Shown: in pieces, positions 57,001 through 60,000 of the stretch
Layout of the letters: each line of letters opens with the position of its first letter
Numbering within the stretch: position 1 is the first letter of the stretch
Assembly: GCA_030765685.1 (NCBI GenBank)
Contig: JAVCCB010000050.1
Span: 11,735 to 75,734 of the forward strand
Direction: 5' to 3'
From: Candidatus Tantalella remota
GTDB taxonomy: Bacteria > Omnitrophota > Gorgyraeia > Tantalellales > Tantalellaceae
DNA length: 64,000 nucleotides
Position numbers: made by a program

Positions 57001-60000
57001 ACAATTTGCTGATGATAGTGGACATACGGCAGCAGAATTTTATACAAATAGAACAGTTGTTGAACTTATGACGCTCATTATGGAGCCAAAGGCCGGTGAG
57101 TCTATATATGATCCCACCTGTGGGTCAGGGGGAATGCTTTTGTCGTGTGTAAACAAACTAAAAAATGACGGCAATGAATATCGTTCGTTAAAACTATATG
57201 GGCAAGAGCTCAATCTTATGACTTCTGCGATTGCTCGAATGAATATGTTCTTACACGGAATAGAGGATTTCAACATTGTAAGAGGTGACACACTTAAGCA
57301 ACCGGCGTTTTTGGAAATGGATAAGCTTAAAATATTTAATATCATTCTCGCTAATCCGCCGTATTCCATAAAACAGTGGAATAGAACTGAATTTGAGAAA
57401 GACCCCTATGGCCGGAATATTTATGGAACACCGCCTCAAGGAACAGCTGATTATGCTTTTCAGCAGCATATAATTAAAAGCCTTGATGATAAAAATGGAA
57501 GATGTGCGATTCTCTGGCCGCATGGAATACTATTTCGCGATGCAGAAGCTGAAATGCGCAAGAAAATGATACAGTCCGATGTTGTTGAAGCTGTTATTGG
57601 TCTAGGGCCAAACTTGTTTTACAACTCACCAATGGAAGCGTGCGTTTTAGTCTGTAATAAAGGAAAGACAAAAGAACGGCAGGGTAAAATTCTGTTTATT
57701 AATGCAGTTAATGATGTTAAGCGGGAGAGTGCGTTTAGTTATTTAACAGATGAACATATTGGCAAGATTCATGAGGCATTTATTGGGTACAAGGATATTG
57801 ATGGATTTGCTAAAGTTATGATAGCTAAGGATGTTCTAGCTAATAATGGGAATATGGCTATTTCTTTATATGCCCATGATCAATATAATGGGGTCTCGAA
57901 TGGAGAAACAACGTCCTTAGCTGATTTGCTGAAAGACTGGCAAGAACAGTCCAATTTGCTGAAGAAAGATTTATCAAAAATTATTGAAGAGTTATCGGCG
58001 GAGAATATATGATAATTAATACAGCCAATTGGAAAACATATGGGTTTAGTGATTTAGCAAACAATTTAACGATGTCTATAAAGGATCCCTTATCGGTAGG
58101 ATATAAGAGATATGTTGGATTGGAACATATTGAACCAGAGAATATGCACATTAAATCATGGGGCAATGTTAAAGATGGAACAACATTCACTCGGATATTC
58201 AGAAAAGGGCAGGTTTTATTTGGTAAAAGACGTGCATATCAAAAAAAAGCAGCGTTAGCAGATTTTGATGGGGTATGTTCCGGGGATATTCTTGTGTTTG
58301 AGGCGAACGAAGAGAATGTCATTCCTGAACTTTTACCTTTTATAGTTCATAGTGATAAGTTTTTTGATTACGCAATTAAAACATCAGCAGGGTCATTGTC
58401 TCCGAGAACAAAATTTAAAGATTTAGGTAAGCTGAAATTCAAACTACCGACTCTTTCCGAACAAAAACAACTTTCGGATTTATTGTGGAGTGGGGATGTT
58501 TTTATTGAAAAATCTAAAAAATTACTTGAAGAGACATGTATATTTAACCGGGTGAAAATGGATCAACTGTTAAATGCCAAACACATGATCGTTCATAAAA
58601 ATACTTTTCCTAAAGGATGGAAAGAAAAAACAATATCTGAACTGGGAGTAATTAGTACAAGCAGTGTAAATAAGAAGATTAAAAAGGGAGAAAAAGTTGT
58701 TAATTTGATTAATTACATGGATGTGTATAAAAGTGAAGACAAAAAAATTACGAGTGGCATAGAGTTTATGCAAGTTTCAGCAAATGAAAATCAGCTTATT
58801 AAAAACCAAGTGCAAAAAGGAGATATACTGTTCACCCCGAGTTCCGAGACATCTGATGATATTGGACATTCGGCTGTCGTATATGAGAGCTCCCCGGAAA
58901 CATTGTACAGTTATCATTTAGTTCGATTGAGATTTTACGATGAACATGATTTGGATCTGGAATATAAACGGTTTGTATTTAATAATCCTAGAGTTATGAG
59001 GTATTTCACCTCGCGGGCAAAAGGTGTTACACGGATGACTTTAAGCCTAGATGATTTTAGGAAAGCAAGAATTTTAGTTCCCACTCTATCAGAACAAAAA
59101 AAAATTGCGAAAGCTATATCGGATATCATTGAGATTAAGATGTCTTTAGAAAAACAAATAAAAAAATCTCAATACGTTCAAAAGCAACTTATTAACAAAA
59201 TATTTGGATGAGGGGTAAGGTGAATACAGTACAAGATTGGTTAACTCTAGGGGCAGTAGTGGTCGCTCTTTTTGGACCGTATGTTTATGATTATTTCAAA
59301 AATAGAACATTAGAGTCTAAGCATGATAAAACATTAATCTGTGTTATTGATGATTTCAGGTCAGACCTCAATAGGATTTTCAATGAACGCAATAAGGGAA
59401 AAACGGAAGATTCAGATAAAGTAATATTTGACGAAACATCACGAAGTGAAATGGCTGGGTATATGAAAATATTCGAGACGTTGATACTTAATAATCATCA
59501 GCAGAGTAAGAACAGTCGCTTGCGAGTTGTATTCTATTCTCATTTTCAGAAGAATATGATTACAATATTTGAGCGAACACGCGACAACCAAAACGGATAT
59601 TTGACCGTTGCCACTGTCAAAAAACTACTTGCTCATGCAGAGGAAGCTAAAAAGGGAAAGTTATGACTTTTAACGAACAAAATACAATTGAAGAATATGT
59701 GATTTCAAAACTATCCAATAAATGGAAGTATATACCATCTGATCAGTTAGGCAGGGATGAACAAGGTATTTTGATAGAGAGTTTATTGAAGAAGTCCCTC
59801 ATGAGGATTAACCCTGAAATAAGAATGATCCCTGAGCGCGCAGATGAGGTTATTTATAGATTAAGAGCTATTCTCTTATCTGTCAATGAAGTTGGGTTGG
59901 TGAGAGCAAACGAAGAATTTACTAAATGGCTCCAGGGTGAAAAGACTATGCCATTTGGAGAAAACAATCAACATGTACCTGTGCGACTTATAGATATTGA

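What the first reader, a model, noticed from the sequence alone, without database searches (positions are those of the whole stretch)
59208..59666. Small membrane-anchored ORF inserted between hsdS and hsdR, the position PrrC occupies in the prr locus
A 152-aa ORF with one N-terminal TM helix and a hydrophilic remainder is translationally coupled to both hsdS (upstream) and hsdR (downstream). In E. coli prr, the anticodon nuclease PrrC sits in exactly this slot and is kept latent by the type I RM complex. This ORF is unrelated in size and sequence, but it may be a different RM-masked abortive-infection or toxin component.
Basis: inference. Interest (0 to 1): 0.6.

Follow-up and report, generated by a model that had tools for sequence, protein, structure and literature searches.

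The report
Small membrane cargo gene inside restriction operon
A real, conserved 148-residue membrane-anchored protein of an unnamed family sits as optional cargo between the hsdS and hsdR genes of a type I restriction operon on a mobile island; it is a plausible new phage-defence candidate, but nothing shows that it depends on the restriction enzyme as PrrC does.

Summary
The ORF is a genuine gene. Ten homologues at 70-99% identity occupy the same hsdS-hsdR position in Omnitrophota MAGs, and dN/dS is 0.04-0.15. The start is more likely GTG 59220 (148 aa) than ATG 59208. Its stop overlaps the hsdR start (ATGA) in four of five lineages compared, and by 11 nt in the fifth. The protein has one N-terminal membrane helix, predicted N-out/C-in, and a confidently modelled cytoplasmic four-helix domain (pLDDT 87). 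It matches nothing in Pfam, NCBIfam, PHROGs, PADLOC, PDB or BFVD.

It is optional cargo, not a core subunit. Operons with 67-81% identical HsdR have this junction empty (three loci) or filled by an unrelated 281-aa gene. Some loci keep a diverged copy of hsdR codons 1-65 just upstream, which looks like a recombination scar. Distant relatives (about 25-40% identity) are not in type I operons. They sit next to type II R-M genes, OLD-family nucleases, TIR or DUF4062 genes, or in a phage-like region.

Best reading: a defence-island passenger captured in a swap-prone slot, probably a membrane-acting defence effector that does not need the Hsd proteins. The PrrC-like "masked toxin" idea is not excluded but has no specific support. 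Function is untested.

The parts
59220..59666 (+). Gene X: 148-aa single-pass membrane protein. An alternative in-frame ATG at 59208 would give 152 aa.
   Evidence: homologues start at this position; dN/dS is 0.04-0.15.
59210..59215 (+). GAGGGG, Shine-Dalgarno-like, 4 nt upstream of GTG 59220 and overlapping the hsdS stop codon.
   Evidence: Related loci have AAAGGAGA or GAGGGGGAG in the same place.
59238..59288 (+). Predicted membrane helix, residues 7-23 (WLTLGAVVVALFGPYVY), with the family-wide ALFG motif. A16 is invariant.
59289..59663 (+). Predicted cytoplasmic domain, residues 24-148: continuation of helix 1, three further helices and two short strands. Conserved polar residues are R52, R57, N58, T73, S74, S76, E77, H108, N112, T115 and R119.
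   Evidence: pLDDT 87, pTM 0.74; conservation.
59663..59666 (+). ATGA: the X stop codon overlaps the hsdR start codon (translational coupling).
   Evidence: The 4-nt overlap is conserved in window, L001, L005 and L006; L010 has an 11-nt overlap.
58009..59211 (+). hsdS (400 aa).
59663..62572 (+). hsdR (969 aa), complete: HSDR_N, SWI2_SNF2/ResIII and T1R_D3-like domains.
55038..56531 (+). hsdM paralogue 1 (497 aa).
56528..58012 (+). hsdM paralogue 2 (494 aa), 51% identical to paralogue 1.
54852..55037 (+). HTH_17 small DNA-binding protein at the head of the operon. The same gene precedes hsdM1 in L001, L002, L027 and L029.
53025..54845 (+). GmrSD-type (DUF262/DUF1524) type IV restriction enzyme, HEC-06-like.
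62574..64000 (+). TIR-domain protein. It starts 2 nt after the hsdR stop and runs off the window.
43028..43409 (+). tmRNA gene marking the left edge of the low-GC island that carries all of the above.
   Evidence: GC 47.9% to its left, 37.3% to its right.

Best explanation
X is an optional cargo gene sitting exactly at the hsdS/hsdR gene boundary of a mobile, two-HsdM type I R-M operon. In this operon lineage that boundary is a swap-prone slot. It can be empty, hold X, or hold an unrelated gene, and the conserved hsdS 3' end and hsdR 5' end could serve as recombination anchors.

X encodes an N-out/C-in single-pass membrane protein. Its cytoplasmic four-helix domain carries a cluster of conserved polar residues, which I infer lies at the membrane-distal tip. 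It belongs to an unnamed family whose other members live in defence islands and mobile elements outside type I systems.

Most likely it is a self-contained phage-defence module. The cytoplasmic domain would sense an infection cue, and the conserved membrane helix would execute the response, either by oligomerising to leak or depolarise the membrane or by blocking DNA entry. X is co-expressed with, but not mechanistically dependent on, the restriction enzyme.

Shown: it is a gene; it is conserved; it is accessory; the operon position; the predicted fold and topology; the genomic company it keeps.
Inferred: the defence role, the sensor/effector split, and independence from the Hsd proteins.
For: Real gene under purifying selection:
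- Homologues at 70-99% identity.
- dN/dS of 0.04-0.15.

Always M1-M2-S-X-R in its own clade:
- X identity between loci (71-83%) tracks M1, M2 and R (74-88%).
- hsdS, by contrast, is shuffled (27-44%).

Accessory rather than core:
- Operons with HsdR 78%, 77% and 67% identical have no gene in the slot (L029, L030, L031).
- An operon with HsdR 81% identical has an unrelated 281-aa gene there (L027).

Scar of acquisition: in L001-L004 a diverged copy of hsdR codons 1-65 lies directly upstream of X.

Wider family: 29 representatives at 50% clustering. None of the six further contexts is a type I operon:
- EcoRV + Dam-type MTase, DUF6602 and DUF4268, flanked by integrases (L011).
- Type IIG MTase + OLD-family ATPase/nuclease + FRG (L012-14).
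- OLD-family ATPase (L021).
- BsaWI REase + MTase and DUF4062 (L023).
- TIR_2 and a recombinase (L015).
- A phage-like region with a Panacea-domain gene, a deaminase and a P22-type portal (L025).

Topology: hydrophobic 17-mers score KD 1.65-2.8, and the downstream flank is net positive in most members.

Fold: pLDDT 87.

Island context in the window: tmRNA, a GC drop, primase/DUF3987, resolvases, GmrSD upstream and TIR downstream.

Precedent: defence genes embedded in type I operons are documented (PrrC, TgvAB, the guilt-by-embedding survey).
Against: - No functional data exist, and no homology to any characterised protein was found by sequence or fold.
- The defence role therefore rests on genomic association alone, from about a dozen independent contexts, all from uncultured organisms.
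- No family member was found in 185,579 GTDB species genomes outside three MAGs (two named Omnitrophota, one an unnamed 'uncultured bacterium'). None was found in IMG/VR, sequenced phages or plasmids. There is thus no tractable host.
- The strictly conserved ATGA coupling to hsdR could mean a stoichiometric partnership with HsdR, which this explanation treats as mere co-expression.
- Clustering of the conserved polar residues at one tip is deduced from helix order, not measured on coordinates.
Confidence: 0.5

Rival explanations
1. PrrC-like guard. X is a latent membrane-damaging toxin held in check by binding the type I R-M complex. It is released when a phage anti-restriction protein disables that complex.
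For: - X has the same slot as prrC, between hsdS and hsdR.
- The ATGA coupling to hsdR is conserved, which would give co-production with HsdR.
- X co-diverges with M1, M2 and R.
- Another occupant of the same slot (L027, 281 aa) carries an RNADEH (Rx4H) motif reminiscent of HEPN RNases such as PrrC. This suggests the slot does attract guard-type genes.
Against: - X has no NTPase or HEPN features. PADLOC v2.0.0, which I assume includes PrrC models (Payne et al. list PrrC among known systems), gave no hit.
- In the six contexts recovered, family members outside this clade sit without any type I system, so the fold does not need Hsd proteins. PrrC, in contrast, is almost exclusively type-I-embedded.
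- Closely related operons lack X.
- No antitoxin-like dependency can be shown by computation.
Confidence: 0.15
2. Membrane tether or assembly adaptor. X anchors HsdR, or the whole R2M2S complex, to the inner face of the membrane. Restriction then acts where foreign DNA enters, or HsdR loading is regulated.
For: - The predicted topology puts a folded domain in the cytoplasm on a membrane anchor.
- Translational coupling to hsdR is tight and conserved.
- From my own knowledge, not checked here: EcoKI subunits were reported as membrane-associated by Holubova and colleagues (2000, 2004).
Against: - Sister operons with 67-81% identical HsdR do without X or carry a soluble, unrelated protein instead.
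- Distant relatives neighbour quite different systems.
- The membrane helix itself is highly conserved (A16 invariant, ALFG motif). That is more than a passive anchor needs.
Confidence: 0.12
3. Passenger with a non-defence or counter-defence role for the mobile element. Examples are a regulator of restriction alleviation during island transfer, a superinfection or entry-exclusion factor acting for the element, or an addiction module.
For: - The operon lies on a low-GC island at tmRNA with primase and resolvase genes.
- Related operons lie beside ParB-MTase and terminase genes of phage-like elements.
- One distant relative sits in a phage-like region (L025).
Against: - No family member was found in IMG/VR or in sequenced phages and plasmids.
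- The neighbours are overwhelmingly nucleases and R-M genes rather than transfer genes.
Confidence: 0.15
4. Not a separate gene: a chance ORF, or a frameshifted N-terminal extension of hsdR.
For: None found.
Against: - dN/dS is 0.04-0.15 and there are homologues down to 25% identity.
- The AlphaFold model is confident.
- HsdR is complete from residue 3 and has the same N-terminus in operons without X.
Confidence: 0.01

Closest known systems
PrrC (E. coli prr locus, EcoprrI type IC system)
   Same: A gene embedded between hsdS and hsdR of a type I R-M operon and co-expressed with it. PrrC is the model for a second-line defence riding inside an R-M system.
   Different: [quoted passage not shown] X is 148 aa and membrane-anchored, has no NTPase or Rx4-6H motif, and gives no PADLOC hit. 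In the contexts recovered, its relatives live outside type I operons.
TgvAB (V. cholerae VPI-2), RloF and other restriction-linked ORFs
   Same: Independent defence genes nested inside a type I operon. TgvAB works without HsdR activity. This is the model I favour for X.
   Different: TgvAB and RloF are GmrSD-like nucleases with known domains. X has no recognisable catalytic domain. The GmrSD homologue in this window lies upstream of the operon (53025-54845), not inside it.
Guilt-by-embedding candidates (HEC/PDC sets of Payne et al. 2024, in PADLOC v2)
   Same: The same logic and the same class: an uncharacterised gene embedded in a type I R-M system, with non-embedded homologues near other defence genes.
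   Different: X matches none of the PADLOC models consistently. Of 27 members scanned, no model is hit by more than one member. It is therefore not among the published candidates, probably because that survey used RefSeq genomes and this family was found only in metagenomes and MAGs.
Single-TM effectors of abortive-infection systems (for example the CBASS '1TM' effector, PADLOC PDLC00664)
   Same: A short protein with one N-terminal membrane helix and a small cytoplasmic domain. This is a possible analogue for how X could kill or arrest the cell.
   Different: Only a marginal hit was seen (E = 0.024, 12.7 bits, one member of 27). No cyclase or other signal-generating partner is conserved next to X.

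Membership tests
PrrC/RloC anticodon nucleases | N-terminal ABC-type NTPase with Walker A (GxxxxGK[ST]) | tested here: not met
   X is 148 aa. The only GKT (residues 60-62) lacks the upstream G and is not conserved; it reads GAT, GLT or AAT in homologues. No AAA or ABC Pfam hit was found.
PrrC/RloC anticodon nucleases | C-terminal HEPN-like nuclease with a conserved Arg...His catalytic motif | tested here: not met
   No Rx4-6H is present in the family alignment. The conserved R52, R57, N58 and H108 are 50 residues apart. No PADLOC, Pfam or fold hit was found.
PrrC/RloC anticodon nucleases | Embedded in a type I R-M operon between hsdS and hsdR | tested here: met
   This holds only for the 70-99% clade of X, not for the wider family.
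PrrC/RloC anticodon nucleases | Kept latent by, and physically bound to, the R-M complex | not testable with these tools
   This needs co-purification and toxicity assays.
Core type I R-M subunit (HsdR extension or obligatory fourth subunit) | Present in all operons of the lineage, or contiguous with hsdR | tested here: not met
   The slot is empty in L029, L030 and L031 and holds an unrelated gene in L027. X is in a different frame from hsdR, and HsdR is complete.
Embedded defence candidate (guilt-by-embedding class) | Nested within a known multi-gene defence system | tested here: met
Embedded defence candidate (guilt-by-embedding class) | Not a mobilome or housekeeping function; non-embedded homologues also lie near defence genes | tested here: met
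   X has no transposase, integrase or metabolic domain. Relatives lie next to type II R-M genes, OLD-family nucleases, TIR_2 or DUF4062.
Embedded defence candidate (guilt-by-embedding class) | Demonstrated anti-phage activity | not testable with these tools
   This requires plaque assays.
HEPN superfamily | Four-helix bundle with Rx4-6H at the start of the last core helix | tested here: not met
CBASS-type 1TM effector (PADLOC PDLC00664) | Significant profile match across the family | tested here: not met
   E = 0.024 for one member of 27 and none for the others.

The most novel reading that the evidence does not exclude
X is a new kind of restriction guardian: a membrane-tethered sensor made in fixed ratio with HsdR that reads the state of the type I complex. 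When a phage anti-restriction protein disables the enzyme, X collapses the membrane through its conserved transmembrane helix. That would be a PrrC-type logic with a completely different, non-nuclease effector. A variant of the same idea is that X docks the restriction complex at the membrane where DNA enters.
Probability: 0.15. Interest if true: 0.75.

Novelty: new member of a known kind. Interest (0 to 1): 0.42.

Why it matters
If X is a defence gene, it would add a small, unnamed, membrane-anchored protein family to the list of immune genes hidden inside R-M operons. The family was found in metagenomes and a few MAGs but not in the sequenced phage or plasmid collections or in IMG/VR, so surveys based on RefSeq would miss it.

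The comparison also shows that the exact hsdS/hsdR boundary of this two-HsdM operon lineage is a cassette slot. The slot has at least three states: empty, X, or an unrelated 281-aa gene. Some loci also keep a diverged hsdR 5' copy next to X. The slot is thus a useful place to look for further accessory genes.

This is not a surprise in kind. Embedding of accessory defence genes in type I operons is well documented.

Tried and rejected
Sequence and profile searches:
- Pfam, PADLOC, PHROGs and NCBIfam scans of X and of 27 family members gave no consistent hit. Isolated weak hits (KMP11, 3-dehydroquinate dehydratase, 1TM effector) were treated as noise.
- A PDB sequence-profile search gave nothing below E = 0.79.

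Fold searches:
- Foldseek against PDB and BFVD gave no match with E <= 0.001.

Locus and genome searches:
- The search for related loci with the full 27-sequence alignment failed because no conserved stretch was found.
- The clade-2 profile found nothing in GTDB genomes or IMG/VR. The clade-1 profile found nothing in IMG/VR.
- tblastn of X and of a clade-2 member against plasmids, and of the clade-2 member against phages, found nothing.

Other checks:
- Promoter and terminator scans across the operon were no better than shuffled sequence.
- Literature searches for two-hsdM systems, or for TM proteins embedded in type I operons, found nothing specific.

Considered and rejected:
- A fused-chain AlphaFold run to test an X-HsdR contact. 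The tool returns no interface or PAE information and would probably refuse a concatenated sequence.
- X as a Walker-A NTPase. The GKT is not conserved.
- X as an hsdR N-terminal extension.
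Full report

The window has an ORF at 59208..59666 (+) between hsdS (58009..59211; Methylase_S, PADLOC Specificity_I) and hsdR (59663..62572; HSDR_N + SWI2_SNF2/ResIII + T1R_D3-like; TIGR00348).

It is a genuine gene:
- A word-indexed search of 5.8 billion proteins returned ten clusters at 70-99% identity, all 148-150 aa.
- An exhaustive HMMER scan of 1.84 billion representatives returned 29 relatives with E <= 0.001.
- Pairwise dN/dS between five lineages is 0.04-0.15 with synonymous sites near saturation.

Two details of the observation need correcting.
- Every homologue, including the database entry for this very locus (P0001, MAG of Candidatus Tantalella remota, phylum Omnitrophota), begins at the position of GTG 59220, which is preceded by GAGGGG.
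- ATG 59208 is part of the conserved hsdS terminus TTTGGATGA, which other loci have without an in-frame continuation.

The product is therefore most probably 148 aa and starts 8 nt after the hsdS stop. The 4-nt ATGA overlap with the hsdR start is real and is conserved in window, L001, L005 and L006. L010 has an 11-nt overlap instead.

**2. What the protein looks like**

Residues 7-23 (WLTLGAVVVALFGPYVY) form the only hydrophobic segment. Across 27 family members the best 17-mer has a Kyte-Doolittle mean of 1.65-2.8. The flank after it is net positive in most members (up to +7), and the short N-terminal flank is neutral or negative in most. By the positive-inside rule this gives N-out/C-in, so the bulk of the protein is cytoplasmic.

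The helix itself is unusually conserved: A16 is invariant and there is an ALFG motif.

AlphaFold2 with a 25-sequence alignment gives a confident model (mean pLDDT 87.1, pTM 0.74). Its elements are one long helix 3-57 (membrane segment plus stalk), strand 67-70, helix 72-90, helix 99-118, strand 126-129 and helix 130-144.

The conserved polar residues are R52, R57 and N58 (end of helix 1), T73, S74, S76 and E77 (start of helix 2), H108, N112, T115 and R119 (helix 3), and T129 and T132 (start of helix 4). From the up-down order of the helices, most of these should lie at the membrane-distal tip, together with the two short strands. That placement is my inference and was not measured on coordinates.

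Nothing known matches:
- Pfam, NCBIfam, PHROGs and PADLOC give no hit, either for X or consistently across the family.
- A PDB profile search gives nothing below E = 0.79.
- Foldseek against PDB and BFVD gives no match with E <= 0.001.

**3. Where it lives: its own clade**

All loci carrying a 70-99% homologue have the same operon: [HTH_17] - hsdM1 (497 aa) - hsdM2 (about 490 aa) - hsdS - X - hsdR (L001-L010). Of the three genome records found, two are named Omnitrophota MAGs and the third is an unnamed "uncultured bacterium" MAG.

Between loci, X is 71-83% identical. That is similar to M1 (81-88%), M2 (74-82%) and R (79-87%). HsdS is only 27-44% identical, as expected from swapping of its target-recognition domains. 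X has therefore travelled with the operon for some time.

**4. It is optional cargo in a polymorphic slot**

HsdR homologues are far more numerous than X homologues. I looked up five of them:

| Locus | HsdR identity | Content of the hsdS/hsdR slot |
|---|---|---|
| L027 | 81% | Unrelated 281-aa gene, itself overlapping the hsdR start |
| L029 | 78% | Empty; hsdS stop and hsdR start are 4 nt apart |
| L030 | 77% | Empty; hsdS and hsdR abut |
| L031 | 67% | Empty; hsdS and hsdR overlap |
| L028 | 81% (85% of the query length) | Decayed hsdR remnant in a Brocadiaceae genome |

The flanks are conserved in every state. The hsdS end reads ...INQIF(G/R)* and the hsdR start reads MxFNEQNT. The cargo therefore sits exactly at the gene boundary.

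In L001-L004 a 70-codon ORF lies between hsdS and X. It is a diverged copy of hsdR codons 1-65: 51/65 aa and 76% nt identity to the resident hsdR. I read this as a recombination scar from acquisition or exchange of the X-hsdR segment.

Together these results exclude X as a core subunit or an hsdR extension. They show that the boundary behaves as a cassette slot.

**5. Where its distant relatives live**

Relatives at about 25-40% identity share the N-terminal helix and all conserved motifs. Some have extra membrane helices before or after the domain.

None of the six independent contexts recovered is a type I operon:
- L011: between EcoRV/Dam-type genes, DUF6602 and DUF4268, flanked by integrases.
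- L012-14: after a type IIG MTase, an OLD-family ATPase-TOPRIM protein and an FRG protein.
- L021: directly after an OLD-family ATPase and a 245-aa ORF.
- L023: after BsaWI REase + MTase and before DUF4062.
- L015: in an HTH-rich element with TIR_2 and a serine recombinase.
- L025: in a phage-like region with a Panacea-domain gene, a deaminase and a P22-type portal.

No member was found in GTDB species genomes outside the three MAGs above, in IMG/VR, or in sequenced phages and plasmids.

**6. The window's own context**

A tmRNA gene lies at 43028-43409. GC content is 47.9% to its left and 37.3% to its right, and X (35.8%) matches the operon (33-38%).

To the right of tmRNA lie, in order:
- a PriCT/RepB-type primase and a DUF3987 protein;
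- two resolvase-family genes;
- a GmrSD type IV enzyme (HEC-06-like);
- the HTH_17 gene;
- M1-M2-S-X-R;
- a TIR-domain gene 2 nt after the hsdR stop.

This is a defence island on an integrative element. Genes from 53025 onward are packed with overlaps or gaps of at most 8 nt. No internal terminator or promoter stands out above shuffled sequence.

**7. How it most likely works**

Shown:
- X is an accessory, co-transcribed, translationally coupled gene.
- It encodes a membrane-anchored protein with a folded cytoplasmic domain.
- It belongs to a family that keeps defence-island company with several unrelated systems.

Inferred:
- The family occurs next to different systems and alone, and sister operons function without it. 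X most likely acts on its own, as TgvAB does inside the V. cholerae type I operon, rather than through the Hsd proteins.
- The conserved membrane helix suggests the membrane is where it acts, by oligomerisation, leakage or entry block.
- The conserved polar tip of the cytoplasmic domain suggests a binding or sensing site.

I put about 0.8 on "accessory, defence-associated cargo". I put about 0.3 on the specific sensor/membrane-effector mechanism. The combined statement gets 0.5.

**8. Rivals**

- PrrC-like guard (0.15). The slot, the coupling to hsdR and the co-divergence fit. However, nothing ties the fold to Hsd proteins. PrrC is almost exclusively type-I-embedded, whereas this family is not in the contexts recovered.
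- Membrane tether for the restriction complex (0.12). The topology fits. However, sister operons do without X or hold a soluble, unrelated protein.
- Element-serving passenger, for example exclusion or restriction alleviation (0.15). The mobile context fits. There is no direct support.
- Artefact (0.01). Refuted.

**9. Comparison with what is known**

Embedding of accessory defence genes in type I operons is established:
- PrrC.
- RloF and TgvAB.
- The guilt-by-embedding survey, which reported thousands of BREX/DISARM/type I-embedded genes and 145 curated candidates now in PADLOC.

X fits that class but matches none of the PADLOC models. It fails the defining features of PrrC/RloC (NTPase and HEPN motif). 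It also fails those of HEPN proteins (Rx4-6H) and CBASS 1TM effectors. It is therefore a new member of a known kind: an unnamed protein family in a known genomic role.

**10. Verdict**

X is an embedded accessory gene in the prrC slot and a plausible defence component. RM-masking is unsupported, and the family's distribution argues mildly against it. Interest is moderate (0.42). X is a clean candidate for experiment and illustrates a cassette slot, but it is not conceptually surprising and comes from uncultured hosts.

Noticed in passing
window 55038-56531 and 56528-58012: Two tandem, overlapping hsdM paralogues, 51% identical. Both have intact DPxCGxGG and NPPF/NPPY motifs. The pair is conserved in every related operon examined (L001, L005, L006, L027, L029, L031). 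This suggests a heteromeric M1-M2-S methyltransferase rather than the usual M2S. A literature search for 'two hsdM' found nothing specific.
   Followed up: partly
L027:6159-7004: In an operon whose HsdR is 81% identical, the hsdS/hsdR slot holds an unrelated 281-aa ORF that also overlaps the hsdR start. It has no Pfam, PADLOC or PDB sequence hit. It contains LRNADEH, an Rx4H motif of the kind seen in HEPN RNases, so it could be a PrrC-like nuclease cargo.
   Followed up: partly
L001:7789-8001 (also L002-L004): A 70-codon ORF between hsdS and X is a diverged duplicate of hsdR codons 1-65 (51/65 aa and 76% nt identity to the resident hsdR). It is probably a scar of the recombination that brought X in.
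   Followed up: yes
window 43028-43409 and 43400-64000: A tmRNA gene (ARAGORN tag peptide ALAY*, unusually short) is followed by a drop in GC from 47.9% to 37.3%. After it come a PriCT/RepB primase (43869-44792), a DUF3987 protein (44747-46030) and resolvase-family genes (51021-51746, 52355-52903). This looks like an integrative island at ssrA. The right end lies beyond the window.
   Followed up: partly
window 62574-64000: A TIR-domain ORF starts 2 nt after the hsdR stop and runs off the window. In related loci the position just downstream of hsdR is a second variable slot. It holds an RNaseHII-domain protein (L001), SIR2_2 (L005), DarT + Macro (L010), a UvrD helicase (L027), SIR2_2 + HerA-like + RelA_SpoT (L030) or SLFN_AlbA_2 (L031).
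   Followed up: partly
window 53025-54845: A GmrSD-type (DUF262 + DUF1524) type IV restriction enzyme lies immediately upstream of the operon's HTH_17 gene. Its best PADLOC match is HEC-06. The best promoter-like site of the whole region (52957-52985) lies just upstream, so GmrSD through TIR may be one transcription unit.
   Followed up: no
L010, L027, L030, L031 (3-6 kb downstream of hsdR): A ParB_N-N6_N4_MTase fusion gene is followed by a small ORF and then by a large-terminase-like gene (Terminase_6C) in L010 and L027; L030 ends before that point. L031 shows only a faint Terminase_6C hit on the opposite strand and no ParB-MTase gene. This suggests the two-HsdM operon is often carried by phage-like elements.
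   Followed up: no
window 52355-52903: A 182-aa ORF fuses an HTH_17 domain to a resolvase catalytic domain that starts at profile position 37. It sits next to a second resolvase gene (51021-51746). It may be a truncated or rearranged recombinase.
   Followed up: no
P0014, P0040, P0042, P0045, P0048 (273-292 aa); P0012, P0024, P0037, P0038: Some distant family members carry extra predicted membrane helices after or before the X domain. This places the conserved domain between membrane spans. It may be useful for working out topology and for choosing constructs.
   Followed up: no
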